20,694 nucleotides of DNA from Reclinomonas americana ATCC 50394 (taxonomy: Eukaryota). The DNA is taken from positions 212,511 to 233,204 of the forward strand of contig PS015059.1 in the NCBI GenBank assembly GCA_048213135.1, in the 5' to 3' direction. Below, in pieces: positions 519-20,694 of this stretch. The notes below the pieces were generated by a model. That model was not told the DNA's origin. It made no database searches and was given only the letters and a program-made list of their open reading frames with translations. The first letter of the stretch is position 1. Each line of letters starts with the position of its first letter. Position numbers and translations under genes: made by a program.

Positions 519-3500
519 NNNNNNNNNNNNNNNNNNNNGGAACCGTTGCCAGTCACACTGCCGTTCAACGTGAACGACGAGCTGGTGACGGCGGTGGCGG
601 CTGTGTTGGCCACGGTCGGACGTGCCAGGGTGGTGAATGACTGCACTGGCGCAGTGGCCGTACCAGTGGCCACATCACGCAGTTGGTAATAGTAGGTCGT
701 CGACGGTTGCAGGTTGACCAGAGCCACCGTCAGATTGGTGACTACCATGCCGCTGGCGGTGGGCGGCGAGGCGGCCACCGCCGTGCCATTGCCACCGGAC
801 ACATCAGCAGCGCTAACACTGGAGTAGTCGAAGAACAGCGTGCACGAGCCGTTATTGGGATTGACGGTGCCCAGGAGGGTGGTCGAGCCGGCCAGCACAT
901 TGCTTGTGCCGGTGACGGCCAGTGTTGGTGTCGACAATGTCGAAGCGCTGATGAGGGCGCCGTACAACTCGCGTTGCGTTGGACACTGCACGACGGCTCG
1001 GAACCACACCGTGGCACCAGCACTTAGTCCAGTAAGAGCTGCCGTGAACGGCGTGGTGCCAGTGACGGTGGCGGGAGTGGCCGATGCGGTGGAATAGCTC
1101 GCCGGCGCCGTCGGAGGCGTCAGTGAGCGAATGGTGCTCGTGCCAATGTCGGCAGCAAACAACAGCGGTTGCGTGGTGCTACTGGGAATGAGAACCAGAC
1201 CCTGGAGATTGGTGAAGCGCGCCGTGGTCACCGAGGAACCATCTGTGGAGCCCGTCGATCCGTGCACACCGGCCACGGTTGACACGCTGCCGGTACGCGT
1301 GACACGACGCACGGTGGTGCCACAGGCAACGTACAAGAGGCTGGCGTACCCATCGAACGTCATTTGCGAGGGATTGTTGAAGGTGGCCGCTGTCGCCGTA
1401 CCATCTGCACCGCCTGCCACACCTTGCTGGCCAGCCAGTACATCCGACTGGCCGCTGGCCAGATCCACCCATCGAATGACCTGGTTGACCGAGTCGGCCA
1501 CATACAGACGCCTGGAGGCGGCATCGAGCGCCACACCCTGTGGAGTGTTGAACTGCGGCGTTGCACCCACAACAAAACCGGCGCTGTCGGCCTGACCGCT
1601 GACAGTGCGCACGGCGCCGAGAGCGGTGACGCTGCGTACTGTGTGTGCAGCTGCGTCAACAAGGAACGCCAATCCGAAACCATCGGCGACAATCGCCGTC
1701 GGCTGTCGGAAGGTGGCATACGCACCGGTGCCGTCGGCCACACCGACAGCACTCGGCCGTCCAGCCACCGTACGCACTGCACCCGAGCTCAGATCGACAA
1801 GGCACACTCGCGCGTTGCCCGTGTCGGCCACCCACAGCGAGTTGGACGATGCGTCGTACGCCACTCCCTTCGGTGTGTTGAAGCGCGCCACAGCCGCTGC
1901 GCCATCGGCACGACTTGCCGTTCCCAGCTCGCCCGCCAGGGTCGTCACTGGGATCTGTGCCGTGTCAATCGCCAACTTGCGAATGGTGTGAGTACCACTG
2001 TCGGCCACATAAACGGCACGCTGGCCGCTGGTGGGTACCGCGGCGAGGCCCCACGGATTGGTGAATGTGGCGGTGAGACCGCTGGTGCCGTTACCGTTGC
2101 TGAGGCCGGCGGTGCTCGTCTGTCCGGCCACCAGAGCTGTGGTGTAGTCGAGAGCGGCACGCGAGCCAACAGCGTACTGGAACGAGGCCGACACCGCACC
2201 GGAGCAAGTGTTGGCCACACCCGAGCCCTGCAACGTCATGTCCGTGAACGACACCGCCGAGGCGCCAGTGGTGGTGGCGGTCGGCACCAGTGGCAGAGTG
2301 ACGTCTTGCACTGCGGTGACCGTGACGGGCGCACCGGAGCGGGCGGCCGTCACCAAGAACGAGTACGTGGCACCCGGAGCAAGATCAGCCACCGACGCAC
2401 TCACTGCTGTTGCCGTGTCGCCGACTGACGGCGAGCTGACCGTCAAGGCGCGCGCTCCGCTGCCCTGCATCCACACTCGTCGCACCGACTGTGTACCTGA
2501 CACGAGCAGGGTGCCGTCGGCCATGACTGCCACATCCTCTGCACCAGACCATGCGTCGGTGCCGGTTGTCGACGCCAGTGGACCGTCGGTCTGCGCACTG
2601 TACAACGTGGTGGTTTCACCGATGCCCGCCGTCAGCAGTCGCACGCCATTCGCGTCGGCAACATACACTGTGCCGCGTGAGCCGTCAACAGCAACGCCGC
2701 GTGGCGTAACAAAGCGTGCAGAGGGGCCCGTGGAGCCGTCGGTGAGAGAACCGGCAGCGGTGCTGGATCCAGCCAGCGTGGCGCTCACGCCTTGAGGATT
2801 GGAGATGATGCGCACCACAGCTCCGGCAGTGTTCGTGTCCTCGGTGGCCACCAACAGGCCCGTCACCGAGTCCACAGCCACACTCCACAGAGTGCCGTAC
2901 TGAGCGACAGTCGCAATGCCGTCGGCGAACTGTGTGGCGCCGCGCACACCGCTAATTTGCGTGATTGCTCCAGAGGCGACAGTGATCTGCCGAATGCCGT
3001 TCGTGCCACTGACCAGCACGGCGGTGCCACCGGCCGCAGTTACCACGCAGTCTGTAATCGTGTCCGCACCGGGATCGACCCAAATGGTGGTCACAACGCC
3101 CGCCATGGTCACTCGCCGCAATGCGTGATTCCCGCTGTCGGCCACAAACACGTCGGTGCCGACCTTGTTCTGGCACAAACCACGCGGTTGAGAGAAGCGC
3201 GCCGTGGCGCCGGTGCCGTTGGTCAGATTAGCTATGGTGAGTGAGCCGGCCAGAATCGTCAGTGTGCCGTCGGTTGCCAGTTGGCGCACCACGTGATTGT
3301 TCATCTCGGTGAATAGCACAGCGCCGCTACTATGTGCCAGCACGCCGGCCACACGATTGAGACGTGCATTGTACGGCGCGGCATCGTCCACTGCGCCAGA
3401 GGCAGACACGGAGCCGGCCACCGTCGACACTTGCGGGTACAGCATGCTCTTGTCGAACGCCACGTACACAGACACGCTTGCCGTCGCACCGCTTGCGCCA

Positions 3501-6500
3501 GCCTGCGCTGTAGTTGACACCGTAAAGCCAGTGACCGAAACGGAGGTGGAGGCCGTAGCGGAGAGCACAGCCGACGCCTTGGGTGCGTAGAACAAGCCTA
3601 CCGGTCCAGCCGCCTGGCGGCTGCTGACAGGTTCGGCTGTGTCTCGCAACATGGGAATGTAGTAGTAGACGGAGCCGGGCTGCACCACCGCCGTGCTGGC
3701 ATAACTGTATTGCTTGCTCACCGCCACGGACGACGTGCTGGTAACCGGTGCACTGTTCACGGCGGCGGACAGCGTCTCCGTGGTGACACCATTGTCGGAG
3801 TACGCGGCACGCAGAAGTCGGCGAATCGTGCCCGCCGAGTGCTCGGTCACGTAGACGGCGGAGAGCACGGCCGAAATGTTGGTGGGCGACACGAAGCGAC
3901 CGCCGCCAACACCGTCGGTGGAGATGGCGGTTCCCGGTTCGTTCACGCCGGCCAGCAAGCGCGAAACGCCCCGCGTCTCAATCGCACGAATCGTGTGGCA
4001 CGTGGTGTCGGCCGTCAGCACCCACGGTGACATGGTCGAACGGAACGAGTCCACCGCCAAGCCAGTGATGCCACCGGAGAAGCGCGCGTTGGCATTCAAC
4101 AGTGGCGTCGTATCGTTTTGACACTGCGCAGTTCCACTGGCACCGGCAACCGTGTACACCAGTCCGCCTGTGCTCACCGCACGAATCGAAGCCGCTGCGG
4201 AGGCCACGTACACAGCTGCCATTGGCGGGTACGCAGCGAAATAGTCAAGACCGATCGGGGACGTGAAGCGTGCCAGATCACGAATGTCGTCAACGTTGCC
4301 GGGTGCGCCGAACAGGCCGGCGAGAAGGACTACGGTCGTCGGCGCAGCCAAGGTGATTTCTCGAATGACATGGTTGCCGGTGTCGGCCACATACAGCAGA
4401 GAGCCGTCACTATTCGTCACGACGTCAGAGGGAGTGGAGAAACCGACATCGGTGTCGCTGCAGACGCCATCTGCTGCGAGCGCCGCTCCAGTACCGCACA
4501 GAGTCGTGACAGTGGGGCCCGACAGCAGCACCTGCCGGACAGCATGATTGCCGGCGTCCGCCACATACAGCAGAGACTCGTCAGGCGACAGCGCCAGACC
4601 GCGCGGCCCATTGAAACGGGCCGGCGAATCCGTAAATGGGGTGTTCGTCGCACTCTGACCAGCCACCAAGCTCACCACACCGCCCGACGACATGCTTCGG
4701 ATGGTGTGATCGGCCTCGTTCGAGAAGTACAGAGTACTACCGCCTGTGACCGCGATGCCCCACGGCTGCCCGAGCGAGCTGCCAATGGTGTCGACCTGGT
4801 CGAGAAACGCATGCGGATCCTTGGAGACTTGAAGGAAAACGTCAAATGGCGCACTCGCGCTCGAAGCCGTCGCAGACAGGTCGACCTGAAAGTCTGTGCT
4901 GGTCGGAAACGTGACCTGCACGTTGGCCACAGTGCCAGGACTGCGCGTGGTGAATGATTGCACCGTGGTAATGACAGGAAGGTAGCCGACACCGGTGCCC
5001 CGGATGCTGAAATAGTACGTGGTGTTGGCGTCGAGACCGTGCGTCTGTGCGCTGAGGGATATTGTCTTCGCAGTGTTGGTGACGCCCGTCACTGCCGGCA
5101 ATGGTGTCGTAAAGCCCTCGGCCCGCAGGGGACGGATAGCCGTGATGCGACTGGCAAAGGGATTGGCGTAAACCACGCCATCCCGGTCGACGGCCAAGCT
5201 GTCGACAAAGTAGTAATCGAAGTCGTCATTGGCGGAGATAATCGGCTCGAGTGTCACCGCATCCAATCGCAACAACGTGATACCGGCAGCTGCAAAATAG
5301 AGATTGTTGCTGTTGGATGGGTCAATAACAACAGCTGAGGGCTGAAGGGCAGCGGGAAGCTGTGCTCCGCCGGGAAGCGTAATCGTTTGGAACGGATCAC
5401 CAGCAAACACCGTCGTCACTGTGTACGGAGCGTTGATCGTCATCCGTCGAATGGCATAATTCTGCGAGTCTGCAATGTACACGTAGGAACCCGACACCGT
5501 CAGACCCAACGGATTCAGGAAATGAGCACTGGTGCCATCGCCATCGAGGAGTCCCGGCTCCCCATCGTTACCGGCGATCACCTGACTTGTATTCCCCTGA
5601 ACGTCCACCAAGCGCACGCTGTGCCCCCTAGTCATGTACAAGAGGCCTGTAGTGTCGTCCAGCGCGAGACCCATGCAGCCGGAAAAGATATTAATAGGTA
5701 CCGTGATCACCAAATTCGCCGACGCCGACGGCGACGGGTTTACCACTCGCAAATAAGTGCTGTTGTTGTCGGCAACATACAGAACCTTCTGACTTGCACT
5801 CCACGCCACTCCACCAACGATGCTTCCGATTTGCGCCACGGATGCGTCGCCATCTTGCAAGCCACACCCAGCCGACCCAACCAGCGTCACCAGCTGACCG
5901 CCACTGGTCAACTTGCGCACCGAACAGCCAGGGGTCGACCCCGCAAAGTACAGCGTCTGACTCTCAACGTCCATGGAGAGGCGGACAATGGTCTCCGTGT
6001 TCGCGACTGTGCGCACTCGCCGTTGCAGCAGGTTGGTTGCATCACGCGACCACAACGCCTGCAGTTGAACGCCCGAGGGCCATGCCTGCGCGTTTGCCGT
6101 GAAATTAATGTCCACTGCCGTCGTTCCCGTCACCGCGACGTTGATGTTGGTGATAGTCGGCGGATCAAACAATGTGATAAAGTAGTTGGCGCCGGAATCG
6201 AACGGCGAGATCAGGGTGGGAAGAGTGGAGCCGGCGGCCGCTGACACAGCACGGAGGCGCACAAAGCGCTTGTTGCCAGGCGTCAGGCCGGTTACCGTGG
6301 CCGTAAATGTCTGCACTGGGTTGGCCGGACCGAACGTCGTCGCCACGGTGGTGATGGCAGCAGTGTCCTTGATGGGCTTGTAGATGTAGATGGCGTGCGT
6401 AGTCGAGCTGACGTACACAAAGGCCAGTGGTCGGAAGGGAGCCACAGTGGTGAGGACGGCAAGGGCGTCGGCGGGGATACCGGCTCCGGGGATTGGCATC

Positions 6501-9500
6501 ACTGACTCGACCACGGATTCGGCGAGGCGAATGCGGCGAATTGTGGGGAGTTCCCGGTGCTGCACGAGAGGGAAAGTGGTGGGTGGGGAGAGGAAGGGGG
6601 GAGAAGGGGGGAGAAGGGGGAAGGGGAAGGGGAGGAGGGGGAAGGGGAAGGGGAGAAGGGAGAAGGAGAGAGGGGAGGAGAAAGGGGAAGGGGAAGGAGG
6701 AGAAAGGGGAGGAGAAGGGGAAGGAGGAAAAAGGGGAGGAGAAGGGGAAGGAGGAGAAAGGGGAGGAGAAGGGGGAAGGAGGGAATTTAATGTGAGAACA
6801 GTGGAGCAAGAGAGAAAGGTGAACAAACAATCACAACCCAAACACGGAAATCGCCACTACACAAGCAGGAAGAAGGATACACGGCACGGACGCGACACAA
6901 TAGAACAACAACAGCGGATCTGTCTGTCACAACAAACACACTCCTTCCCACTCACCGTGACATACAACGTGCCGTCGCCGCCGCACACAATTCCATTCAT
7001 AGTCGGCATGAACGCGGCGAAGCCGAACGGTCCATCGCCATTACCAGCTCCGTCGTTCACACTGATGAGACTGGTCACTTCTCCGGTGGGCGTCAGTCGC
7101 CGAATCAGGCCACCAGCAGGAGTAGAATTCGTCTGATCAGTGAAGTACAAGTTGCCGTCGGGACACACAGTCATGGCCATAATGTGGCGCATTTGCGCGC
7201 TCTTGCCGACGCCGTCAGTCGTAGCGATCAGCGGATCTGCGGAGCCAGCCACACGATCCCACAGTGCCATCTGTTTCGCAGTTACAGGGTACATGTCGCT
7301 GATGTTGAAGTCGAGGGTGAGGCGAAAGATGCTGAAGTTGTCCAGGTTGCCTTTGGAGCTGTAGTAGATGGCGCACGTGGTCGGGTCCACAGCCAATGCT
7401 GTTGCTGTGTCGAAGCTGAAAGACGAACTGGTGACTCCGACATCATCCGAGTCGATACCGGGATTAATAGAGTTAATGATGGTCGTAGTTGTCATCGTCG
7501 GCAAGTCCACCCAGCGGAAGGCATGGTTGCCGGAGTCTGCTCGGAGAACATCGGTGAGGAACAGTGAGCAGAGGGGAAAGGGGAGTGTGTGTGTGTAAAG
7601 GAGGGAGAGAGAAGGAGGGAGAGTGCCACGATAGCGCGATGTTTGTGTGCGAGACGTTGGAAAAGAGTAACATCACTCAAGCATCAGAGAGAAAAGGAAG
7701 AGGTGCATGTGAGGAGGGTGTTGTTCGTTGCAGACGCGACGGACGACGTCGAGAGACGAAGAAAGAGTAAGGATGTCCTAGAAGGAGCAGCAGTGAACTC
7801 CAGTGAAAGGACACACATATACATGATGACAGATAGACAGAGATCGCGCGAAAATGGGCAAGACATGTGAATCACAGAGTGCTGCCGACAAGATGAGACA
7901 AGAGCGAGACAACTGAAGAGACAGAGAGCCAGTGACAAGAGAGAATCTTGACGCACCGACAACAACCAGTGCCTGCTTCAGCGGGCAGTAGCCAAGTGCA
8001 GTAGGAAAATTGAACCTGGGTGGATTTCCAGAGTTGGAATCCAAGTAGTCGGGACCCATTGTCGGATCGCCAACCAACACCGTGGCGGTATACTGACTGG
8101 ACCCTGGCGCTGTCGGTGCCAGCTGGCGGATGCAGTGGGTGTCGGTCTGGGTGGAAACAAACAGTGAGTGGAGACTGGGAGGCGAAGAAAAGAGAAGTAG
8201 ACAGACGAATGCCCTCAAAACACCCTCAGTGCAGGAATACGACAGAGAAGCGAGATCAGAGAAACATGAGATCATCCGCAAAAGGCAGGTCATACCAAGA
8301 AAGGGCTATCAAGAGAGAACCACCAATTCATCCCTCCCACGCAACATCAGTCACGTAGATGCTCATCGGCCCGCTGTAGTTTGCGGACAAGGCTTGATAC
8401 GGCGCCGCGCCTACCACAATACCGGTCGGGGTGCTGTGCTTGCCAGTGCCGGCAACACCGTTGTCGTAACCCTGCATGCTGGGCGTACCGGAGAACAGCG
8501 CATGGGTATAGTCAAAGTCGGCTGCCGACTCAGCTAACTCGAGCAGGACATTCAACGATTCGACTGCGTTGTTGACGTGGCCGGTGATGACAGCGCCGGT
8601 GTTGGACGTTTGCACATCGTCGTACGGATTGTACTCGAAGTACGGCTTGCCCAACGTCGTAAAGGTCGACACGGGCGTGTTCGAAAACTGAACTGGCTGT
8701 GTGGCGGCGTCATTCTGTGTGTAACCCGTCACTGGCATTCGCACAATTAGCATTCGGTATGTGTAGGCAGTGGCTGGCCACAACGCGGTGGCGGCGACAT
8801 TGAGTGTGTTGACACTGGACATGTCGTTGAGTGCCACTGGGGCCGTCATTGGCAACACCGGGAAAGAAATACGTCGGATCAGGTGGTTGAAGGTCTGTGG
8901 TGCACCAGTGCGGCAATGAGGGAAGAGGAGGGAAGAGAAGAATATCGATACGCATCTCTCACACACTCACAAACATGCACATACACACACGCGCACACTC
9001 TTTCTCTCGCTCACTCTCACATACACACAAGAATCCAACTCACATCGGCAATCCACAGCGAATTGGTGTCATCGTCGCAGTACATGCCGATTCCGTTGCT
9101 GATGAGAGCTTGCGATATGCCAGGTCCGTCGGTCGTGCCACCATTACTGTAGGTGCCGGCAATAGTCCGGATATACACATTGTTGATCGCAAATTCCACC
9201 TCACGCACAGTGTAAAAATCAAGGAAGAACATTCGACCGCTCTTCTTGCAGACGGTGATGCCGAAAGGCGACTCGACGCCAGCGGTGCTTGAATTACCGT
9301 CCACGTAGGTGTTTCGTGAGCGAGCACCGGCAACCGTTGATACAGTCTTGGTCCACGGATTGATGACGCGGATAGTGTGGTTGAGTAATTCCGTAACGTA
9401 CACCTTGCCCGCAGCGTCGACAGCAATGCCCACCGGTGAATCGAACAGTGCTGACGATGCGGGGCCGTCGTTGAATGCACCGCCGGAAGGACTGCCTGCA

Positions 9501-12395
9501 AATGTTCGCACGTAGCCTGCGAGTGGGAAGGGAGGAAGGGAGCAGAGAGGGGATTAGCAATGAGTGATATGAATAATTCAAGCAGATAACACTGAAGACG
9601 GAATCGGAGAAAGACGAGATGAAAAGGAGGAGGGGGAACAGGAGCTCTCGAAAGTCGACAGTGAAGAAGACTAAGACGACGACATCTGCGAAGGCGGGCC
9701 GAATGAGGCAGACGAGCAACGAGAAACACGACGGAGCTTTGTGGAGATGAGAAGAGAAACAAGAGACGCAAACAACAATAACCAACCGATATGTTATTGA
9801 TGTGCAAGAAGAAAAAGGTGCCGCCAGAAAGCTGCTCACGCAGAATAGGAAGACACTCACTAAAGCAAGCCCACCCCAACCTGCTGCACTCACCAGAGGC
9901 AGTATCGTAGATGCGAATCGTGTGCAACGCAGAGTCAGCGATCCACAGCCATCCTCGCCTGCTGTCAAAAGCAATAGCCTGCGGCTTGTAGAACCGCGCG
10001 TCAGTTCCGAAACCGTCAATGTTCGCGTGGACACCACCGTCGAGGGCCGAGCGGCCAGCGACAGTCGTGAGAGAATCCGATCCAAACATTAGGTGGAGGA
10101 GACCAAATTTAAAACGCCGGATCGTCGAGTTGTCACTGTCGGCAATATACACGTCCATGGAGACCGGGTCCATCGCCAGTGAAAATGGCGAGAAGAACCG
10201 CATGGGACTGTCCGTGGAACCCGGAATGCCTGCCGCCCCGAACTGATACGTACTTGCTCCCCATTCCTGGTACACCGTGAGAGTGTGCTTGCCGTAATTC
10301 AAGATGAACAGAAACAGTCCAAACAAATCGTGATGATAGGATACCACACTCGACGGCGTGTACAAGCCATCGCTCACAGGGTCGGGGATACCCAGACCGG
10401 CACCGTCAACTGCACCCAGAAACCGACTGACATTCGGCTCGAGATACTCGGCACTAACAGCATACTGAAACGCCGCTCCCATGGCCGACGTGGCACCGAG
10501 GGTTGTTGCGGTACCGTGTAGCGTTGCGCTTGTAGCAGCGAGGTCGGTGGCGGCCGACGTGGTTAACACTGGGAGAAAAGCAGTGGTGCAAGTGGCCGGC
10601 GATGTCGAACGCATAATGACATTGTCACTACTTGAAACCACCCGGAAATAAACGCGGTACGTGGAGGCTGGGGCCAAGTTGAGAATGCGCACTGTTAGGG
10701 GCGTTCCGGGTGATGGAAATACGAGTACAGGCATCAATGGTCGGCGAGGAAGCGAGGCGACGCGAATGATCTGTTGGGGTGGAGTGGAAGGGTGGGTGAC
10801 AGAAAAGGGGGGAAGAAGGAGGAAGGAGAGGGAAGGAGAGGGAAGGAGGAAGCGAGGGGAAGGGAAAGACGGAAGAGGCGTGACGGAAGAGGGGAGAGTG
10901 GAGGGGGAAGGAGTGAGAGAAGGAGGGGAAGGAGAGAAAGAAGTAAGGGAAGGGGAAGGGAAGAGGAAGGGACAAGAGGCGCGACGCAAGGCGGAAGAGG
11001 GCAGAGACAAAATACGAGGAGGAAAGGAAGTAGAGACTGTAAGTCCTCTGAGTAGCGGGGAGAGAGATGTCAGAAGAGACAGGCCACATGATAGAAAAAA
11101 ACAAAGGGCAACAACAATGAAAAGCCCCAACAAGGAGAGAGAACAAAGAAGGGGAGATGCGACAAGCCAATCCCCATTGCGCCACTGCACTCACATTCGC
11201 CACATCGTCAACAATGTAGACTAGCTGCTTGTTCTTGGAGAACGTAATGTCGGCGGGACTAGAGAATGTCGCAAAGCTGCCCACACCGTCATCGTTGGAG
11301 TTGACGCCCACGCGACCCGCGACAACCGTGCTCGATCCGTACAGCGTCACCTCGCGAATCACGCGTGCTGTCCTGTCAGCCACAAGCAGATACGTCTGCT
11401 GTCGCTCGCCATTGTTCGTAATAAAGGCAACACCCGAAGGATATTGGAACCGTGCGCCGGTACCAGTACCGTCTTGGGTCGACGCAGCGGCAGTCGGGTC
11501 ACCGGCAATGGTGTCCACTCTATAGGACTCGGGCCCAAAACCGTCGTCGTTTAACTTGCGCACAACCCGTGAAACGGGATCCGTCATAAATATCCAGTTA
11601 AATTGATCAAGGCCTCCGTACGCCAAGCGGCCCGGTGACGTGAACTGCGCCAGAGTCCCAGTACCTAGCGTCGCGTAGCCATCCGTATTACCAGGTACAT
11701 TTGGCTGGCCATATTGTGTTATCGTGGGGTAAGCGAGATGCACGCTGAGATCGATACGTCGAATGACGTTGTTTCCGGTATCGGAGACGAACAGGAAGTA
11801 GCTATAAGGATCGGTAGCCACACTCGTCACCGACGACGAAAACGTTGCCACATTCCCATTTCCGTTAACAGGGGGCGAAGGACTCGGGCAAACCGTCGGA
11901 TTGCCAGCAAAGTGGGTAATCGTGTTGCCGACAATTTTGCTCACCGAGCACGAAGCCTGCGCCCCGCAACACACAATCGCTCAGTGAGCGAACAAGATCG
12001 CATAATGACAACAAGCAACTGCAGAACATCGACACGCAACATCGCCCACATACACAATCATTGGCCATCCGTCGCGATTGGCGGTAACTGCGGCAGGCGA
12101 TTTCAGTTGACCGACACCAACGCCGCCGTCTGCGTATCCGGGGGAGCCAACGGTGCCGGCGAGGGTTGACACCTCGCCGGTGTCATCCATGATGCGGATG
12201 ACATGATTACCGCTGTAATGGATAGGCAAAGGAGAATGAGAAAGCGGAGAAGGAGTGTGACACGCAGAAGGGGGAATACAGATGGTGATGGAGCGAAGCA
12301 AGCTGCAAGAGAAGAAGCAGACAGACAGAGAAATTATGAGGAACACTCTGAGATAGGAAGAGGGGGATTGAAAAGGAGAGACAGAATTGGGACAG

Positions 12396-12469
<74 letters not shown>

Positions 12470-12925
12470 CGAGCACCAACGTATCGGCCACTAGCAGCAC
12501 ATTGAAGTCGTCGGAGAAGTAAATGCTTGAAGGATTCTTGAAACGAGCGGCGGTGCGATTGCCATCGGCCCACGGCGTGGTCATGTCGTGACCCGGCTCG
12601 CCGGCCACGGTCTGCACGTTGAGACCCATGTCGTCGCCAATGCCATACTCCGCGTAGACACTAGATTCACCGCCACCAAAAGGAGCTGAATAACCATTGC
12701 TCTGCACGGTGAAGGTCACCGTGCACCCGGTGGGATCGCTGCCGGTCGAGGGGGACGAAATGTTGACGATGGAGGGCACGTTGAGGCCGGTGGCGAGCAG
12801 CGTCAGAGTGGCAGAGTGCACGATGAGTAAGAGGAATAGGCAGAGAGAGCTGGCCGGGGTGTGCACAGGGAAGGCGGGAAGGCGCCGCTGGCGGTGGCGG
12901 TGGCGGAGGAGGACGAGGTGGTCAA
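1..12925 (-). CDS. Giant multi-exon NHL-repeat beta-propeller / FN3-like repeat protein, >3,500 aa, 3'-partial. Exons: 12925-12481, 12212-12041, 11956-11195, 10770-9894, 9516-9044, 8894-8346, 8146-7957, 7536-6956, 6559-<1
   Basis: Many NHL-type repeats (e.g. AG..G.ADG....ARF..P.G.A.D....LYVADTGNH.IR.I) and FN3-like segments (L.P.TTY.Y.L...SFTT). All 8 internal introns are GT..AG with compatible phases, and splicing rebuilds NHL motifs across the junctions (LVADT|GNHVIR, WIAD|TFNHLIR, VVV|DSGNHAFR). Exon lengths sum to 10,588 nt excluding the 20-N gap. Confidence 0.9.
519..538. other. Assembly gap (20 N placeholder) inside a coding exon
   Basis: Run of 20 N. Complete codons abut it on both sides (TCC ends at 539, GAC starts at 518). 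Confidence 0.95.
539..6559 (-). CDS. Large exon of the giant gene (2,007 codons up to the gap): end of module 3, NHL/FN3 modules 4-7, plain FN3-like repeats
   Basis: Part of ORF 431..6841. Acceptor ctcgtgcAG|CAC CGG at 6560-6561 follows a long polypyrimidine tract. Confidence 0.92.
6590..6783. repeat. Pure polypurine/polypyrimidine tract in intron 6560-6955, including a 27-bp tandem repeat (gaaggggaaggaggagaaaggggagga, about 3.5 copies, 6687-6780)
   Basis: Only A and G on the + strand; units start at 6687, 6714 and 6741. Confidence 0.85.
6956..7536 (-). CDS. Internal exon of the giant gene (NHL blades, module 3)
   Basis: Acceptor gcAG|AC TCC GGC AAC CAT (D-SGNH), donor ACG|GTGAGT; 581 nt, phase 1 to 0. 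Confidence 0.9.
7957..8146 (-). CDS. Internal exon of the giant gene (NHL blade, module 3)
   Basis: Acceptor ccAG|ACC GAC ACC CAC TGC, donor G|GTGCGT; 190 nt, phase 0 to 1; reads TDTHCIRQL...PRFNFPTALGY. Confidence 0.88.
8346..8894 (-). CDS. Internal exon of the giant gene (end of module 2, start of module 3)
   Basis: Acceptor acAG|ACC TTC AAC CAC, donor GAT|GTTGCG; 549 nt, phase 0 to 0. Confidence 0.87.
9044..9516 (-). CDS. Internal exon of the giant gene (NHL blades, module 2)
   Basis: Acceptor gcAG|GC TAC GTG, donor GAT|GTGAGT; 473 nt, phase 1 to 0; reads FDSPVGIAVDAAGKVYVTELLNHTIR. Confidence 0.92.
9894..10770 (-). CDS. Internal exon of the giant gene (end of module 1, start of module 2)
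   Basis: Acceptor acAG|ATC ATT CGC, donor G|GTGAGT; 877 nt, phase 0 to 1. Confidence 0.92.
11195..11956 (-). CDS. Internal exon of the giant gene (NHL blades, module 1)
   Basis: Acceptor gcAG|GCT TCG, donor AAT|GTGAGT; 762 nt, phase 0 to 0; reads LFVSDTGNNVIRRID and DGTGTGARFQYPSGVA. Confidence 0.9.
12041..12212 (-). CDS. Internal exon of the giant gene (NHL blade, module 1)
   Basis: Acceptor acAG|C GGT AAT CAT, donor GAT|GTTGCG; 172 nt, phase 2 to 0. The following 84-nt intron carries an in-frame TGA and a CTCAC branch-point-like motif. Confidence 0.87.
12398..12469. repeat. Compound microsatellite (CA)n(GA)n in intron 12213-12480
   Basis: Directly visible. Confidence 0.95.
12481..12925 (-). 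CDS. 5'-most well-supported exon of the giant gene: basic stretch, hydrophobic signal-like segment, first FN3 half and first NHL blade
   Basis: Acceptor acgcAG|TT GAC after a ~300-nt polypyrimidine tract, donor AC|GTTGGT. Reads RHRHRQRR...SLCLFLLLIVHSATLTLLATG-LNVPSIVNIS...DGNRTAARFKNPSSI. The 5' boundary is less certain than the 3' boundary. Confidence 0.78.
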
Positions 12926-12934
12926 CTGCGTGGT

Positions 12935-13248
12935 GGAGGGAGAGGGGAGAGAGAGAGGGAAAGGGAGGTGGAGTGAGGGAGTGGGAGAGGAAAGAGGGAA
13001 GAGGGGAGAGGGAGAGGGATGAGGGAGAGAGGGAAGGGGAAGAGGGAAGAGGGAAGAGGGAGAGGGAGAGGGAAGAGGGAGAGGGAGAGGGAGAGGGAGA
13101 AGGAGAAGGAGAGGGCGGGGTAGAGAGGGAAAGGGAGAGAGGGAGAGAGAGGGGAGAGGAGGGGGTGAGAAGGAGAGGGAGAGGGAGAGGGCGGGGGTGA
13201 GAAGGAGAGGGAGAGAGGGAAGCAGAGAGAGAGAGAGAGAGAGAGAAG
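12935..13248. repeat. Polypurine (GAGG/GGA/GA) low-complexity tract, intronic
   Basis: Almost exclusively A/G on the + strand; ends just before the acceptor at 12926-12927. Confidence 0.85.
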
Positions 13249-13298
13249 TAAATGACCAGTGCCACCATCTCAAAACAGAGTACGAGGTTGCGCCTCAC

Positions 13299-13312
13299 GT
13301 GTGCACACAAGA

Positions 13313-13350
<38 letters not shown>

Positions 13351-13446
13351 CAGAGAGAGAGAGAGAAGAAGAAGAAGAATAAGAAAGGGAAAGGGGAAAA
13401 GTGCAGTGAAAAACCAAGCTCCTCGTCCCGTGCGGTTTGTGCTCAT
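13299..13446 (-). CDS. Possible first coding exon of the giant gene (MSTNRTGRGAWFFTALFPFPFLILLLLLSLSL...); may instead be 5' UTR
   Basis: ATG at 13446, 148 nt to a C|GTGAGG donor at 13298. Phase 1 matches the exon starting at 12925, but the segment runs through microsatellites. Confidence 0.3.
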
Positions 13447-14303: not shown

Positions 14304-14941
14304 NNNNNNNNNNNNNNNNNNNNNNNNNNNNNNNNNNNNNNNNNNNNNNNNNNNNNNNNNNNNNNNNNNNNNNNNNNNNNNNNNNNNNNNNNNNNNNNNN
14401 NNNNNNNNNNNNNNNNNNNNNNNNNNNNNNNNNNNNNNNNNNNNNNNNNNNNNNNNNNNNNNNNNNNNNNNNNNNNNNNNNNNNNNNNNNNNNNNNNNNN
14501 NNNNNNNNNNNNNNNNNNNNNNNNNNNNNNNNNNNNNNNNNNNNNNNNNNNNNNNNNNNNNNNNNNNNNNNNNNNNNNNNNNNNNNNNNNNNNNNNNNNN
14601 NNNNNNNNNNNNNNNNNNNNNNNNNNNNNNNNNNNNNNNNNNNNNNNNNNNNNNNNNNNNNNNNNNNNNNNNNNNNNNNNNNNNNNNNNNNNNNNNNNNN
14701 NNNNNNNNNNNNNNNNNNNNNNNNNNNNNNNNNNNNNNNNNNNNNNNNNNNNNNNNNNNNNNNNNNNNNNNNNNNNNNNNNNNNNNNNNNNNNNNNNNNN
14801 NNNNNNNNNNNNNNNNNNNNNNNNNNNNNNNNNNNNNNNNNNNNNNNNNNNNNNNNNNNNNNNNNNNNNNNNNNNNNNNNNNNNNNNNNNNNNNNNNNNN
14901 NNNNNNNNNNNNNNNNNNNNNNNNNNNNNNNNNNNNNNNNN
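14304..14941. other. Assembly gap (638 N)
   Basis: Run of N. Confidence 0.98.
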
Positions 14942-15584
14942 TTTCTGCAAGAGAAACCACGCTGCGGCTCATGACGAGCATGGATTTGACGCCGAATTCC
15001 AAACAGGAATGCAGAAAGACAGCAAGTGGGGTTGCCAAAGAGAAGAAGGCACGTGCACATGTGCACAGTTCTTCGGCCGGCGCAAAGTGTGCTCGTACTG
15101 CGCCTGCTTTATCTTTGCAGGGCAGCAAGGAAGCACCTTGAACGTGTGAAGCGATGAGAGGAAGAGGAGAGAGACTTGATAAGACAGCGAGAAACCGAGG
15201 AACGAACAGAGAGATGAAGAGGCAAAGAGAGAGAAACATGTTAACAGGGAATATGGTGATTGAGAAAAAAGGGAGAAAGAGGATAGACATGCACAGAAGC
15301 TGACGAAGAGAGACGCGAGGACGGAGTGAAAGCTGAGGAAAGAAGAGAGAAGTAGAGGCAGAATAAAGGAGCCGGCGAGATAAAAGATAGAGAGAGGGGA
15401 AGAATAAGAGTAAAGGAGAGGCGCAGAAACGGTGAGCGTGTGTGTGAGAGAGAGAGAAAAAAAGAGACGGCGTGAGAGAGAGATGAGTCGGTCAACATGA
15501 CAGAGTTGCGCACAGTGACAGCCATCGGTCTTCGTGCATTCATTCAGCTCACTCCGTCCAGCACCATCCAGGCGCACGGCGTTC

Positions 15585-15932
15585 AATCACCTCTGCATCC
15601 TCCAGCACAAAGCACCGCAGCACGACGTCGACCAGGATCCAGTCATGGTGGTCGTCATCTCAGCAAGGAGCTCGTTGACGGCCAGCACGGCCAGTCGTGC
15701 GGCAGCAAGCTATTGCCGTGTCAGCGCACGTGGCGTGGACCACACACGGATCGTATTATCCCCACTCCCGCTCACGACGTGCTGGTCATCGGGAGTGACG
15801 GCGACGCAGAACGCACCTCCAGAGAGTCTTTCCAGCCGGTGCACCTGTTGCCCACTCGCCAGCGACCACACGCACACAGTCTTGTCATATCTTCCGCTCA
15901 CAACGTGCCGACCATCACCGTGTCAGTGTGCC
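15585..15932 (-). pseudogene. 5'-truncated WD40 paralog (copy C): last ~2 WD repeats plus the C-terminal tail
   Basis: Reads DGRHVVSGRYDKTVCVWSLASGQQVHRLE...VAVTPDDQHVVSGSGDNTIRVWSTPRALTRQ*LAAAR. A TAG at 15710-15712 stands where paralogs have GAG, and a frameshift precedes VVLRCFVLEDAEVI. Confidence 0.82.
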
Positions 15933-16043: not shown

Positions 16044-17179
16044 TCAGCACCGGAAAGAGACAACCTCGGCATCCTCAACGATGAAACAGCGCAGAACCAG
16101 CTCGGGAAGGCACCGTGAGTCTACTACTTCCTCGACCACCTGCATCTCCTGCACAGCCTGCATGGTCGAGCGTGCGGCATCGAGCTCGAGGCGAGCAAGG
16201 CCACGCGGTGTGGACCACACTCGTATCGTCCAGTCATCACTGCCACTTACTATATGCTGACCATCGGGAGAGACGGCAACAGACATCACCAGGTCCGTGT
16301 GTCCCTCTAACCGTCGAACTTCCTCTCCGCTTGCCAGAGACCACACTCGAACTGTGCTGTCTCCACTCGCACTCACAATGTACTGACCATCAGAGGTGAC
16401 AGCAACAGACCACACCGTGCTGGTGTGTCCATCCCATCGTCGCACCTCCTCCCCACTCACCAACGACCACACCCGCACGTCGCAGTCCGCACTCCCACTC
16501 ACAATATGCTGACCATCAGGGGTGACGGCGACAGACTGCACAATGTGAGTATGTCCCTCCAGCCGTCGCACCTCCTTGCCACTCGCCAGCAACCACACCC
16601 GCACAGTTTCGTCTCCACCGCCACTCACAATATGCAGATTATCAGAGGTGGCGGAGACAGACCACACTCGATCTGTGTGCCCCGCCAGCTGTCGCAACTC
16701 TTCCCCGATCGCCAGCGACCACACCCGCACTGTATTGTCAAAGCTGCCACTCACGATGAACTCACCGTCGCGGGTGACGGCGACAGACGTCACCGTGTTG
16801 GTATGTCCCTCCAACCGTCGCACCTCCTCGCCATTCGCCAGCGACCACACACGTAGGGTGTTGTCTCCACCCCCATTTACAATGTATTGGCCATCGGGAG
16901 TGACGGCAACAGAAAACACTACATCAGTGTGTCCCACCAGTTGTCGCACTTCTTCGCCACTCGCCAGAGACCACACTCGAATGATCGTGTCCATACACCC
17001 AGCGACGATGTGCTTGCCATCGAGAGTGACAGCGATGGACTGCACCACAGCAGCGCGACTCTGAATGATCTGTGCCAGATGCTCGCAGTGAGACACACAA
17101 AGAGAGAGAGAGAGAGCAACAGCAACACACACGAATCCCTCTCACACACGCATGTGTGTGTGTGCACCTTGGTTGCCAT
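16044..17179 (-). CDS. WD40-repeat protein copy B (7 repeats plus ~55-aa tail, ~345 aa); exons 17179-17168 and 17069-16044
   Basis: Seven 42-aa GH..V.SVAVTPDG.HIVSG..D.TVRVWS repeats. Micro first exon ATG GCA ACC AAG|GTGCAC, a 98-nt intron, and acceptor acAG|ATC ATT (an alternative in-frame AG lies 9 nt downstream). Confidence 0.9.
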
Positions 17180-17894
17180 TGGAAGAGAGGAAGGTTAAAT
17201 GACTCTCCTCTCTTAATAGGTTCGCTTCTGTTGACTTTCTCTCTTCGCAGAGCAAGCCACCTGGTCGGTACTTTGCTGTGGTGGTCACGAAGAGTCTGCA
17301 CTCTTGCGTGCGTGTGTGTGTGCGACGATTGCTCGCTCGGGATTGTCACCGTTTCCCGCCTTGCCTCGCCCGCCTTGCTCTGAGACGTCGTTCATTCCTC
17401 GTCAGGCTGCAACCAGCACCCCACACAGCATACGACAGTGTGAGCGACGTGGCTCCGATGATGCTTGTGAGCTTTCGAAGACTCGTCGATGAGAAATCGG
17501 CAAAATGGACATGCTGGGTGGTGACACGACGTGACCCTCTACTCCGCTGTGCATGTCCAGCGACACTTCATTTCAACTGTCCTGCATTCTCTCTCAACGA
17601 GGACTGGAATGTCGGTCTGCTTGGATGTGCAGCCACAACAAGACAAGAAAGGCACAGACTCAAGTGATTCATCACGCTTGTACACAGAAACTGAGGTGAA
17701 AGAGACACGTACGCAGGGGGAGACATGCTTCACGCCCGCAACATTCATGACAGGATAACAAACAAAAAAGAACAATTCATCAACCTCAACACCGACCTCT
17801 CTCTCCAATCCACAGTCGTCCGCTCTTCCCCCAAGGGCACGAAAAACAACTCACAATCACCAGTAGCCACCCTCTCTCCCTTCGACGCACCAAC

Positions 17895-19035
17895 TCAGCA
17901 CCGAAAAAGGACGACCTCGGCATCCTCAACGATGAAACAGCGCAGAACCAGCTCGGGAAGACATCGTGAATTTACCTCTGCCTCTTGCATCTCCTGCACA
18001 GCATGCATGGCCGAGCGCGCAGCGTCAAGCTCGAGGCAAGCAAGGCCCCGCTGCGTCGACCACACTCGCACGGTCTTGTCCTTGCCACCCGCACTCACAA
18101 TATGCTGACCATCGGGAGAGACGGCCACAGACGACACCCATCCGTCATGTCCCACCATCCGACGTATTTCATCCCCACTTGCGAGAGACCACACCCAAAC
18201 AGCGTTGTCTCCACTAGCACTCACGACGTGCTGGCCGTCGGGGCTGACAGCGACAGACTGAGTCCGCCAGTTGTGCCCCACCAACCGTCGCACCTCCTCC
18301 CCACTCGCCAGTGACCACACCCGCACGGTGCTGTCCTCAATCCCGCCCACAATGTGCTGACCGTCCGGGGTGACAGCGACGGACATAATCGTATTGGTGT
18401 GTCCCCCCAGCCGTCGCACCTCCTCACCACTCGCCAGCGACCACACCCGCACTGTGTTGTCTCCACTCCCGCTGACTATGTGCCGACCGTCGGGAGTGAC
18501 GGCGACAGTCGACACCCACCGAGTGTGTCCCTCCAACCGCCGCACTTGCTCTCCACTCGCCAGTGACCACACTCGCACTGAGTTGTCGCTGCTGCCGCTA
18601 ACAATGTGCTGTCCATCAGGGGTGACGGCGACAGAGTATACCACATCAGTGTGGCCCTCCAGCCGTCGCACTTTTTTACCACTTACCAGCGACCACACTC
18701 GCACTGCGTTGTCTCGACCCCCACTGACAATGTGCTCGCCGTCAGGAGTGACAGCGACAGACATCACCCATCCACTATGTCCCCCCAGCCGTTGCACCTC
18801 CTTGCCACTCGCCACAGACCACACTCGAACAGCAGTGTCCATGCACCCACCAACAATGTGCTTGCTGTCGGGAGTGACAGCAATGGACAGCACCACAGCG
18901 AGACTCTGAATGATCTGTGCCAGAGGCTCACAGTGAGACGCACAAAGAGAGAGAGAGAGAGAGAGCAATAGCAACACACACGAATCCCTCTCACACGCTG
19001 TGTGTGTGTGTGTGTGTGCGCACCTTGGTTGCCAT
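17895..19035 (-). CDS. WD40-repeat protein copy A (7 repeats plus ~53-aa tail, ~343 aa); exons 19035-19024 and 18914-17895
   Basis: Same structure as copy B: ATG GCA ACC AAG|GTGCGC, a 109-nt intron, acAG|ATC ATT CAG, seven WD40 repeats, TGA at 17895-17897. Confidence 0.9.
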
Positions 19036-19164
19036 CAGAAGAGAGGAAGGATAAGATGACTCTTGTGCCCTCTCTTGATAGGTTCGCTTCTGTTGACTTC
19101 TTCTTCGGAGAGCAAGCCACCCGGTCGGTACTCTGCTGCGGTGGTCTCGAAGAGTCTGCTCGTT

Positions 19165-19165
<1 letters not shown>

Positions 19166-19221
<56 letters not shown>
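19166..19221. repeat. Compound microsatellite (GC)n(GT)n upstream of WD40 copy A, much shorter in copy B (~17306-17322)
   Basis: Directly visible. Confidence 0.9.
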
Positions 19222-19222
<1 letters not shown>

Positions 19223-20694
19223 GCTCGCTCGGGATTGTCACCGGTTCCCGCCTTTCTTCTCCCGCCTTGCTCTGAGACGTCGTCCATCCCTCGCCAGGCT
19301 GCAACCAGCACTCCAAAGAGCGTGCGGCAGTGTGGCCGATGTGATTCCCATGATGCGTATGGGCTTTCGAAGACCGACATGGGACTTGTCGATGCGAAGT
19401 CGGCAGCATGGACATGCAAAGATGATGGCACGACGTGACGCTCCACTCCGCTGTGCATGCCCAGCGACACTCCATTTCGACTGACCTGCATTCTCTCTCA
19501 GTAAGGACTGGATTGTCGGGCTGCTTGAATGTGCAGCTCTGACCCAGCTGACACATGTACACGAGAATCCATTGTGCAGCGAGTCAGCGACACCTCACAC
19601 CTCCTTGGCTCGGCCCACAGCGAGGTTGATGAGGTACATACGACGAGCCTCAAGGAACAGGAGAGGAACGACCACCACAGCAGCACAGTGGTGGAAGAGA
19701 CAGTCGTGTCGTGAGACTCCGCCCCCCCCCCCCCTAACCCCAACTCACAATCAATGCCTCGCGCCTTCAATCACACTCACAGTCGGTCGGTGAGTCGTCT
19801 CCAGCATGTACTGTGAAGCACGGAACCACGTGGCTTCGCATGCCAGTGGCCAATCCCTTCCCAGCACGCCTGTGTTACGATCACACAAAGATTGAGTCAG
19901 TCAATCTCCAAATCTCGCCAACTTGTTCCTCAACGCAAGTGTAGAGCACGCACCATGTGTTGCTGGCCTTGCACGAGTCTGCAGTCTCCCATGGCCACCA
20001 GCATCGTCGCTCGGCAGTGAGAGCAGCAACCAAGGTGTGTACATCATCGATCTGCTCCGACTCGCCAGCCGGGATTGAAAACGATCCACCGACAGGCCAC
20101 CCTTGGGGAATCACGACACACACTCCATGGCATCGACCTGCATGAATGAGGTGAGTGGAGGGAAGAAGGAAAGAGAAAGATTACGACACGAACAAGGCCA
20201 CACACCTGCTTCGTGTACGGTGGGATGCGAGTGGGGAGCCGACTGAGTGAGGTGATACCCGGTAACGGGCGATGCACATCACGGTCATTGTCACGACGCA
20301 ACCACCGACAAGAACGTGTTTCCAAGGTGCCTGCATATCGGTGTGCTGTGAGCAAAGGAATGGAGGAAGAGGAGCTCTTGTCTCGCCGACGAACACACCG
20401 ACAAGCACCTTATGCCAACACGCGTTTGGGCAAGCGACAAGCCGAGGGATGCTTCTGCACACACATTCATTCTACAAGAGTGCAGAGTGAGCAGAGTCAG
20501 CACGCAGTCATGCCACTTCGGTATCAGAATGCTTACCAATGCCTAACACGATGGCAGAATGGAAGTCGGCGCATCTTGAGCAGACCAGCATGCATGCTCG
20601 GCCTCGAGCTTGTGCGGGAAGGAGGGGTGGACGACTGGGGAAGATGGTGAGCGCACAAAGGAGGAAGACGGTGGAGAGAGAGAGAGAGAGAGAG

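What the first reader, a model, noticed from the sequence alone, without database searches (positions are those of the whole stretch)
16213..18905. WD40 array with near-identical scaffolds and hypervariable top-face residues, resembling HET-E/NLR-type variable receptors but without a NACHT domain
Seen: fourteen 42-aa (126-bp) repeats keep an almost fixed scaffold (SVAVTPDG.HIVSG..D.TVRVWSLASGEEVRRLEGH). Variation concentrates just after GH (B: TDVVF, TNTVT, TDRVW, THIVQ, TSTVW, TDLVM; A: SGWVM, TDVVY, TRWVS, TNTIM, NWRTQ, DGWVS) and around the Asp (B: GDN, FDN, GDE, ADC, GDS, DDW; A: RDN, SDN, GDN, EDS, GDN, KDK). Established: these positions form the top binding face of WD40 propellers, and the same pattern of high internal conservation plus diversifying selection defines Podospora HET-D/HET-E (HNWD) non-self receptors. 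Here the genes are stand-alone propellers in a tandem array. Inference: a diversifying intracellular recognition family in a microbial eukaryote.
Basis: partly seen in the sequence, partly recalled or inferred. Interest (0 to 1): 0.72.

Follow-up and report, generated by a model that had tools for sequence, protein, structure and literature searches.

The report
Tandem WD40 propellers, variable binding face
Two neighbouring genes in an unidentified intron-bearing microbe each encode a seven-bladed WD40 ring whose framework is tightly conserved while the few residues that normally grip partner proteins have changed unusually fast, which points to a small family of evolving recognition modules but not to a fungal-style immune receptor.

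Summary
The repeats are real. Two minus-strand ORFs (A 17895-18926, B 16044-17081) each encode seven WD40 blades plus a conserved 54-56-aa tail. A decayed third copy lies at 15576-15922. Variation does concentrate at top-face positions 16, 17, 19, 35 and 37. The scaffold is not near-identical, though: blades share 67% of residues and 65-79% of bases, and synonymous sites are near saturation (dS about 0.8). So there is no HET-E-style homogenisation; purifying selection keeps the scaffold (omega about 0.2). My codon-model test puts omega near 3 on the four codons equivalent to those selected in HET-E, and this holds across model variants. Simple counting gives omega about 1, and the comparison is between paralogous blades, not alleles. 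No NACHT lies in the window. Neither ORF has an in-frame ATG upstream of a strand that the fold needs, and each opens at a splice-acceptor-like site. The 5' end is therefore unresolved; a conserved 4-codon mini-exon is the best candidate. Best reading: a small birth-and-death family of partner-binding propellers with fast-changing binding faces and a constant tail. It is a new member of a known kind.

The parts
17895..18926 (-). Copy A main exon: N-terminal closing strand, 7 WD40 blades, 54-aa tail, stop codon 17895-17897. Blade 1 is 18819-18926, repeats 2-7 are 18060-18818, the tail is 17898-18059.
   Evidence: ORF and translation. Pfam WD40 with 7 stretches, E 7e-69. AlphaFold2 model with pLDDT 91 and 28 strands. 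Coordinates.
16044..17081 (-). Copy B main exon with the same layout. Blade 1 is 16971-17081, repeats 2-7 are 16215-16970, the 56-aa tail is 16047-16214, the stop is 16044-16046.
   Evidence: Pfam WD40 with 7 stretches, E 4e-73. Coordinates.
15576..15922 (-). Copy C, a decayed fragment: one partial and one full WD40 repeat, then a tail remnant with an in-frame stop and a frame change.
   Evidence: Three-frame translation, coordinates, 60-71% nucleotide identity to the A and B repeats.
19035..19530 (-). Conserved non-coding 5' flank of copy A, homologous to 17182-17626 upstream of B. It holds a (CA)n tract.
   Evidence: Alignment, 85-88% identity over aligned columns, blastn limits of the duplicated unit. 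No frame shows purifying selection. No Pfam hit.
17182..17626 (-). Conserved non-coding 5' flank of copy B.
18927..19023 (-). Candidate first intron of A: GTGCGC donor, (CA)n, (CT)n pyrimidine tract, then AG just before the exon. This is the best conserved stretch between the two units (92.8%).
   Evidence: Sequence, identity, candidate search. Inference only; no RNA evidence.
19024..19035 (-). Candidate 4-codon first exon of A (Met-Ala-Thr-Lys), ending in phase 0 at a GT.
   Evidence: One of 8 ATG-to-GT phase-0 candidates conserved in both units. Chosen for its place next to the acceptor. Unverified.
17168..17179 (-). Candidate 4-codon first exon of B with the same four residues. The candidate intron is 17082-17167 (GTGCAC donor).
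   Evidence: Unverified.

Best explanation
A and B are tandem paralogues of a small, lineage-restricted family of seven-bladed WD40 propellers. C is a dead copy, so the family evolves by duplication and loss (birth and death). Each protein is a closed, very regular propeller: an N-terminal strand closes the ring and every blade keeps the Asp-His-Ser/Thr-Trp tetrad. A helical tail follows, ending in a conserved hydrophobic motif.

Strong purifying selection holds the scaffold and the tail constant. The canonical top-face hotspot codons (16, 17, 19, 35) have been replaced faster than synonymous sites, so A and B present almost wholly different binding faces.

Inferred mechanism: the top face binds a partner protein or peptide and differs between copies. 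The constant tail is the common output or anchoring element. This works like the sensor part of HET-E-type receptors but is not a member of that family, because diversity comes from old, separately evolving blades and not from shuffling of homogenised repeats.

Shown here: the fold, the repeat anatomy, the selection pattern and the duplication structure. Inferred: binding, the role of the tail, expression and the 5' exon.
For: - Fold: Pfam WD40 with 7 stretches in each copy. AF2 model has pLDDT 91 and 28 strands, i.e. 7 blades. Foldseek TM 0.98 and rmsd 0.9 to the PkwA WD40 domain 5YZV. Best PDB sequence hit is 2YMU, E 2e-128.
- Tetrad: H14 in 12 of 12 repeats, S/T20 in 14 of 14, D36 in 14 of 14, W42 in 14 of 14.
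- Scaffold constraint: omega 0.17 by counting and 0.21 by ML. Tail omega is 0.17 between A and B. The tail is conserved at 66% in the single outside relative P0123, E 7e-8.
- Hotspots: entropy ranks of 17, 19, 35 and 37 are 4, 1, 2 and 5 of 42 (P 4.5e-5). ML omega is 2.9 with LRT 25, and 2.7-3.0 in 5 of 5 model variants. With the class's own synonymous rate the ratio is 2.6-4.8, with p<0.05 in 4 of 5 variants.
- Per site: omega>1 at p<0.05 for 16, 17, 19 and 35; sites 17 and 19 survive correction for 42 tests. In null simulations 0 of 150 reach 2.9. A-versus-B positional pairs give omega 3.2-3.9.
- The variable sites are not junk: Trp occurs 7 times against 1.1 expected, and Pro 0 times against 7.0 expected.
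- Birth and death: copy C. No homogenisation within genes.
Against: - Counting (Nei-Gojobori) gives omega of only 0.65-1.3 at these sites.
- For the six-position set, the test with its own synonymous rate is not significant in 5 of 5 variants.
- Synonymous distances are near saturation. Recombination among repeats or multi-base changes could inflate ML omega. A permutation test gives a marginal signal of shared tracts (84 of 2000).
- All comparisons are among paralogous blades, and positional orthology of blades 2-6 is weak (73.7% against 71.4%). A burst of early divergence followed by conservation (PMC5120217, abstract) would look similar.
- The gene model lacks a verified start.
- Only two intact copies are seen, and one outside fragment shares the tail.
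- No partner is known.
Confidence: 0.5

Rival explanations
1. A and B are ordinary WD40 adaptor paralogues. The blades were amplified long ago, each blade's binding residues diverged early and have been conserved since, and A and B simply serve two fixed partners. On this view omega>1 is an artefact of saturation, recombination or the blade-to-blade comparison.
For: dS among repeats is 0.83 and nucleotide identity is 65-79%, so the amplification is old. Counting gives omega about 1. Hu 2017 reports rare ancient repetitive WD40s held by purifying selection with median omega 0.19 (PMC5587647, passages). Persi 2016 describes biphasic repeat evolution (abstract). Stand-alone WD40 clusters of 300-385 aa are common in bacteria and fungi.
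Against: ML omega is 2.7-3.0 across 5 of 5 variants and no null simulation comes near it (0 of 150). The best-supported orthologous pair, A7-B7 (tree, shared tract), shares 0 of 6 top-face residues. By my reading of the alignment, that includes 0 of the 4 hotspot residues.
Confidence: 0.26
2. The ORFs are sensor exons of a larger signalling gene, for example a NACHT or NB-ARC NTPase lying upstream outside the window. A and B would be alternative 3'-terminal exons, or each would be joined to shared 5' exons. That would make a true NLR-like receptor with exchangeable propellers.
For: No in-frame ATG lies upstream of the strand that closes the ring. Each ORF opens just after a (CT)n tract and an AG. 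This genome has spliceosomal introns with GTGAGT donors and pyrimidine-rich acceptors. The closest sequence relatives are often parts of longer multi-domain proteins.
Against: No Pfam domain was found in 0 of 9 minus-strand flank ORFs tested at E<=0.01 (one chance-level SPW hit at E 0.088), nor in the one tested (19035-19583). The 750-nt spacer before B cannot hold an NTPase domain, and it evolves without coding constraint. Each copy carries its own conserved 5' flank of about 500 nt, as an independent promoter would. A conserved 4-codon mini-exon would make each copy self-sufficient.
Confidence: 0.12
3. The copies are non-functional relics of a duplicated exon.
For: There is no start codon in frame. 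A decayed copy C lies next door. No RNA evidence could be obtained.
Against: Both frames stay open for 365 and 379 codons despite dS 0.77 between them. Scaffold omega is 0.2 and tail omega is 0.17. The tetrad residues are intact in all blades.
Confidence: 0.04

Closest known systems
WD40 sensor domains of Podospora HET-E/HET-D/NWD (HNWD) NOD-like receptors
   Same: Both have 42-aa WD40 repeats with a conserved scaffold. Variation and omega>1 fall on the same four codons, the pair around the first residue of strand a and the pair around the Asp of the b-c turn. These are Paoletti codons 7, 9, 25, 27, equal to positions 17, 19, 35, 37 here by spacing and loop position. Six of the seven classification positions of Ament-Velasquez 2025 (10, 11, 12, 14, 30, 32, 39) map with a constant offset of 5 onto the six most variable positions here.
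   Different: No NACHT or HET domain was found in the window. There are 7 blades, not 10-12. Repeat identity is 67%, against over 80-100%. dS is 0.83, so there is no concerted evolution and no sign of repeat shuffling. The seventh HNWD position is invariant here. A unique C-terminal tail is present.
Highly or moderately repetitive WD40 proteins (Hu et al. 2017), for example the Nostoc propeller 2YMU and the Thermomonospora PkwA WD40 domain 5YZV
   Same: Consensus-like blades with a full tetrad in every blade. These are the best sequence and fold matches. The rare 'ancient, purifying selection, omega about 0.19' subclass described there fits dS 0.83 and omega 0.17-0.21 here.
   Different: The minimum pairwise identity among the six full repeats is 0.62 (A) and 0.57 (B). 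That places them in the 'moderately repetitive' class (0.4-0.7), not the 'highly repetitive' class. They are eukaryotic with an intron-type gene structure, form a tandem paralogue pair, and carry a family-specific tail.
Single-propeller WD40 adaptors such as WDR5, Tup1 and RACK1
   Same: Seven-bladed closed ring of about 300 aa that binds partners by top-face hotspots. Foldseek TM is 0.8-0.9 to WDR5 and Tup1.
   Different: Those have blade-to-blade identity mostly below 0.4 (Hu 2017), and their binding faces are conserved between orthologues. Here the blades are 67% alike and the face differs almost completely between the tandem copies.

Membership tests
WD40 beta-propeller (Pfam PF00400) | Several WD40 repeat matches above the family threshold | tested here: met
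   7 stretches in each ORF, 239 and 226 bits against a cut-off of 27.
WD40 beta-propeller (Pfam PF00400) | Closed propeller of four-stranded blades with the Asp-His-Ser/Thr-Trp tetrad | tested here: met
   Predicted, not solved: AF2 pLDDT 91, 28 strands, first strand closes the ring. TM 0.98 to 5YZV. Tetrad residues are present in all blades that can be scored.
HNWD / HET-E-type NLR sensor | NACHT (or other NOD) domain in the same protein | tested here: not met
   No NOD-type Pfam hit in A, B or the flank ORFs tested. The spacer before B is too short and unconstrained. Exons outside the window cannot be excluded for A.
HNWD / HET-E-type NLR sensor | High internal conservation: repeats at least 85% identical over at least 100 aa (Dyrka 2014), or over 80-100% within a gene (Ament-Velasquez 2025) | tested here: not met
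   Mean 0.67 and maximum 0.79 over 66 pairs. Criteria read.
HNWD / HET-E-type NLR sensor | Concerted evolution: low synonymous divergence among repeats, and exchange within and between genes | tested here: not met
   dS 0.83. Within-gene identity 72.5% and 72.1% against 71.4% between genes. The only shared-tract signal is the positional pair A7-B7, global p 0.042.
HNWD / HET-E-type NLR sensor | Positive selection on four top-face codons | tested here: inconclusive
   ML omega 2.7-3.0, p<1e-5 with the shared synonymous rate. With its own rate, p is 0.0025-0.09. Counting gives 0.65-1.3. These are paralogous blades only; no alleles were available.
HNWD / HET-E-type NLR sensor | Ten or more repeats (double propeller) and repeat-number polymorphism | tested here: not met
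   Seven blades in both copies. Polymorphism could not be tested.
Highly-Repetitive WD40 (Hu et al. 2017) | [quoted passage not shown] | tested here: not met
   The minimum is 0.62 in A and 0.57 in B, so both fall in the moderately repetitive class (0.4-0.7). Definition read.

The most novel reading that the evidence does not exclude
A protist (or other non-fungal eukaryote) runs a 'split' recognition system. Free-standing WD40 sensors have top-face hotspots under continuing diversifying selection. They multiply and die in tandem arrays, and they signal through a constant C-terminal motif to a separate partner instead of through a fused NACHT domain. This would be an NLR-like logic reached by birth-and-death evolution and not by repeat shuffling.
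Probability: 0.12. Interest if true: 0.75.

Novelty: new member of a known kind. Interest (0 to 1): 0.42.

Why it matters
Internally repetitive WD40 propellers with variable top faces are known from bacterial and fungal STAND and NLR proteins, where repeat shuffling is held to be the engine of diversity. This locus shows the same four codons turning over fast in a different setting. The blades are old and not homogenised, only one propeller is present, no NTPase is in sight, and there is a private conserved tail. If the pattern holds up, top-face diversification of WD40 sensors does not need concerted evolution, and microbial eukaryotes other than the filamentous fungi studied so far would be worth searching for such modules. 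As it stands, it is a modest addition to a described class.

Tried and rejected
- **Kinetoplastid-style intronless polycistron.** Suggested by one-strand genes, pyrimidine tracts and microsatellites. Rejected because the neighbouring NHL gene is split by introns with GTGAGT donors.
- **Whole genome.** None is held, so no family or NACHT census was possible.
- **Sequencing runs.** None was listed and no RNA holder was listed, so expression, splice junctions and polymorphism could not be examined.
- **Earlier scan notes.** Nothing for this genome or this sequence.
- **Homologue search with the whole protein.** Only generic repetitive WD40s came back, the best at 54-58% identity, with no close family member among the 120 listed.
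- **Tail-only searches of the 5.8-billion-protein set.** None at near lengths and none at longer lengths.
- **Metagenome scan with P0123.** All 80 loci kept match its WD40 part. The strongest listed rows stop at about query residue 53-69; the few that run on to residues 72-93 are only 41-62% identical and were not inspected. I saw no convincing tail relative.
- **Cluster look-up for names.** Not available, so the source organisms of P0123 and P0017 are unknown.
- **Atlas searches.** Only generic NHL and WD40 clusters, with no taxonomic lead. Rfam gave no match in the window.
- **Open plus-strand ORFs in both 5' flanks** (17203-17667, 18972-19484). No Pfam hit and omega 0.7-1.2, so these are treated as chance.
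- **Upstream exon search.** 8 conserved ATG-to-GT phase-0 candidates were found, none with a GT[AG]AG donor. Only the one next to the acceptor is kept, as a candidate.
- **Recent repeat exchange between A and B.** No repeat pair exceeds 80% nucleotide identity.
- **Literature.** Two searches listed no paper on free-standing WD40 propellers under diversifying selection in protists. Supplementary tables of the papers cited were not opened.
Full report
**What is there.** The window is GC-rich (0.53-0.66 outside the N-gap bin). It carries two 126-bp tandem arrays at 16238-16976 and 18058-18881. On the minus strand they lie in two stop-to-stop ORFs, B (16044-17141) and A (17895-19034). Each ORF gives seven Pfam WD40 matches. 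The best sequence match among solved structures is the highly repetitive Nostoc propeller 2YMU, E 2e-128. Each ORF has a shorter first blade, six full repeats (42 aa; the last one in A has 43) and a tail of 54-56 residues. Just downstream of B lies a third, decayed copy at 15576-15922. It has one partial and one full repeat, and a tail remnant broken by a stop and a frame change.

**How alike the repeats are.** Over the 66 pairs of full repeats, amino-acid identity averages 0.67 (0.52-0.79). It is 0.75 after the six most variable positions are removed. Nucleotide identity is 65-79%. Codons for the same scaffold residue are the same codon in only 1007 of 1712 comparisons. Nei-Gojobori counting gives dS 0.83 and dN/dS 0.17 for the scaffold.
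- This fails the 'high internal conservation' criterion used for fungal NLR repeats: 85% over 100 aa (PMC4986451), or over 80-100% within a gene (PMC12222747) (passages read).
- It also fails the 0.7 cut-off for 'highly repetitive' WD40s, so both proteins are 'moderately repetitive' (PMC5587647).
- That paper describes a rare class of old repetitive WD40s held by purifying selection, with median omega 0.19. That is the regime seen here.
- Repeats are no more alike within a gene (72.5% and 72.1%) than between genes (71.4%). Same-position pairs are barely closer (73.7%).
- A permutation test for shared tracts is marginal (84 of 2000), and its best pair is the positional pair A7-B7.

So there is no sign of the concerted evolution that defines HET-E-type repeats.

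**Where the variation sits.** I number each repeat from the Ser that follows Val-Trp. The five highest entropies are then at positions 19, 35, 16, 17 and 37. The AlphaFold2 model of A (window 17898-18926, 28-row alignment, pLDDT 91, pTM 0.85) has 28 strands. In each repeat, positions 7-11, 18-23, 29-34 and 39-43 are strands d, a, b and c.
- The variable sites therefore lie in the d-a loop, at the start of strand a, and in the b-c turn.
- Paoletti 2007 places these loops on the top face (PMC1805685, passages).
- By the rule of Wu 2012 (bulky residue, R1, R2, bulky residue; D-1 sits before the tetrad Asp), positions 17, 19 and 35 are the R1-2, R1 and D-1 hotspots (PMC3419727, passages).
- The four HET-E codons under strong positive selection (7, 9, 25, 27) flank conserved codons 8 and 26. 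They map by spacing and loop position onto 17, 19, 35 and 37, which flank Val18 and Asp36. I inferred this mapping; no HET-E sequence was aligned here.
- The chance that four pre-named positions all fall in the top five of 42 is 4.5e-5.
- Top-face loop positions average 2.36 bits and bottom-face loop positions 0.73 bits.
- Nonsynonymous divergence is 0.79-1.25 at top-face sets against 0.16 in the bottom loops.
- The variable sites are not unconstrained. Trp occurs 7 times against 1.1 expected from flank base composition. Pro occurs 0 times against 7.0 expected (84 residues).

**Selection test.** Counting methods give dN/dS of 0.65-1.3 at the variable sets. Both rates are near saturation. I then wrote a codon-model test.
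- Method: Goldman-Yang type model on an IQ-TREE topology. Branch lengths and kappa were fitted on the 36 scaffold codons. Omega was then fitted for chosen codons against that shared neutral clock.
- The scaffold gives omega 0.21 and kappa 4.6. The four HET-E-equivalent codons give omega 2.9 (LRT 25, p 5e-7). The bottom loops give 0.23.
- Per site, omega exceeds 1 at p<0.05 for positions 16, 17, 19 and 35. Sites 17 and 19 survive correction for 42 tests. Sites 37 and 38 are about 1.2 and not significant.
- The class estimate stays at 2.7-3.0 with other codon frequencies, two scaffold omega classes or a star tree (5 of 5 variants).
- When the four codons are given their own synonymous rate, the ratio is 2.6-4.8 with p from 0.0025 to 0.09 (below 0.05 in 4 of 5 variants). 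For the six-position set this stricter test is not significant in any variant.
- Simulated neutral data on the fitted tree never reach 2.9 (0 of 150, maximum 1.92). The false-positive rate is 3.3%.
- Same-position A-versus-B pairs give omega 3.2-3.9, p 3e-4 to 1e-5.

Caveats remain. Distances are large (1.4-3.5 neutral changes per codon between A and B blades). Recombination and multi-base changes are not modelled. All comparisons are between paralogous blades. Persi 2016 reports that repeats typically diverge fast after duplication and are then conserved (PMC5120217, abstract). I read the result as moderate evidence that the hotspot codons turned over faster than neutral. It is not proof of ongoing diversifying selection.

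**Gene structure.** This genome has spliceosomal introns. The long NHL-repeat gene on the same strand is cut into exons. The exons end at GTGAGT (also apparently GTGCGT) and begin after pyrimidine-rich tracts and AG. Neither WD40 ORF has an in-frame ATG before the Met inside blade 1. Yet the model places the residues just after the ORF opens (Leu-Ala-Gln-Ile-Ile-Gln) as the strand that closes the ring, with block pLDDT 92. A start at the internal Met would delete three strands. Each ORF opens right after a (CT)n tract and three in-phase AGs. The ORFs are therefore best read as exons that need a 5' exon.
- Among 8 conserved ATG-to-GT phase-0 candidates, the one beside the acceptor is a 4-codon exon (Met-Ala-Thr-Lys). 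Its donor is GTGCGC in A and GTGCAC in B, with an 86-97-nt intron. This is a candidate only.
- A large N-terminal domain in the window is unlikely. The one minus-strand flank ORF tested has no Pfam hit. None of the nine has a hit at E<=0.01; the only hit is a chance-level SPW match at E 0.088.
- The 5' flank shows no coding constraint in any frame.
- Only about 750 nt separate A's stop from B.
- Exons beyond the window edge (20694) cannot be excluded for A.

**The tail.** After the last blade the model has a helix (residues 292-317, pLDDT 65-72) and a low-confidence end. Between A and B the tail has dN/dS 0.17, so it is coding and constrained. A full HMMER scan of 1.84 billion cluster representatives finds one relative, P0123. 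This is a 116-aa fragment with the last repeat and a 66% identical tail (E 7e-8), and it shares the motif around Arg-Cys-Leu-Pro-Glu...Cys-Phe-Ile-Val-Glu. Word-based searches of the larger set find none. The family as defined by this tail is therefore rare in public data.

**Duplication history and an unexplained contrast.** The duplicated unit runs from about 500 nt upstream of the exon to 50 nt past the stop. Between A and B the divergence differs sharply by region:
- 5' flank: 85-88% identity.
- Acceptor region: 93% identity (K 0.08-0.17).
- Blade 1: 84% identity.
- Tail: 86% identity.
- Repeats 2-7: 69-79% identity.

Synonymous divergence is 0.39 in blade 1, 0.46 in the tail and 0.77 in repeats 2-7. 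Non-coding flanks are thus several times less diverged than synonymous sites in the exon. Possible causes:
- gene conversion confined to the flanks and exon edges;
- constraint on a promoter, UTR or intron;
- replacement of the interior repeats from other family members.

I could not tell these apart without the genome.

**Comparison and verdict.** The locus works like the sensor part of HET-E-type receptors in one respect: it has a regular WD40 scaffold whose four hotspot codons vary and appear positively selected. It fails the family's defining features of a fused NOD domain, high internal conservation, concerted evolution and ten or more repeats. It belongs with the moderately repetitive WD40 propellers that Hu 2017 found in about 2% of fungal and protist WD40 proteins. 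It is distinguished by a tandem paralogue pair with unlike faces, a dead third copy and a private conserved tail. That is context, not support.

Noticed in passing
window 431-13300, minus strand: A very large multi-exon gene rich in NHL repeats (Pfam NHL E 7e-35, with weaker Teneurin-NHL, SGL and fn3 matches). It has one uninterrupted exon of about 6.3 kb and several upstream exons. These are separated by CT/CA-rich introns with GTGAGT donors. Its start and full extent were not worked out.
   Followed up: partly
window 519-538 and 14304-14941: Two runs of N (20 and 638 bases). The first lies inside the NHL gene. The second lies about 630 bases downstream of the decayed WD40 copy, so further copies of the array could be hidden or lost there.
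   Followed up: no
window 19035-19530 versus 17182-17626: The non-coding 5' flanks of the two WD40 copies are 85-93% identical (K 0.08-0.17), while synonymous sites in the adjoining exons have diverged by 0.39-0.77. This could reflect conversion limited to the flanks, regulatory constraint, or replacement of the interior repeats. It remains unexplained.
   Followed up: partly
window 17203-17667 and 18972-19484, plus strand: Both copies of the 5' flank keep a long open frame on the opposite strand (154 and 170 codons). There is no Pfam hit and no sign of coding constraint between the copies, so this is probably chance in GC-rich DNA.
   Followed up: yes
protein P0017: A 563-aa protein from a JGI source, 58% identical over the repeats, shares the unusual 'Val-Trp-Ser-Leu-Ala-Ser-Gly' blade junction. 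It carries an unrelated N-terminal region of about 260 residues with no Pfam match among the 25 families listed. It hints that related blades occur fused to other domains elsewhere.
   Followed up: partly
window 12398-12469, 12936-13246, 13333-13366, 19180-19221: Long (CA)n, (AG)n and GA-rich microsatellites fill the introns and spacers. On the gene strand they read as pyrimidine-rich tracts ahead of acceptor sites.
   Followed up: no
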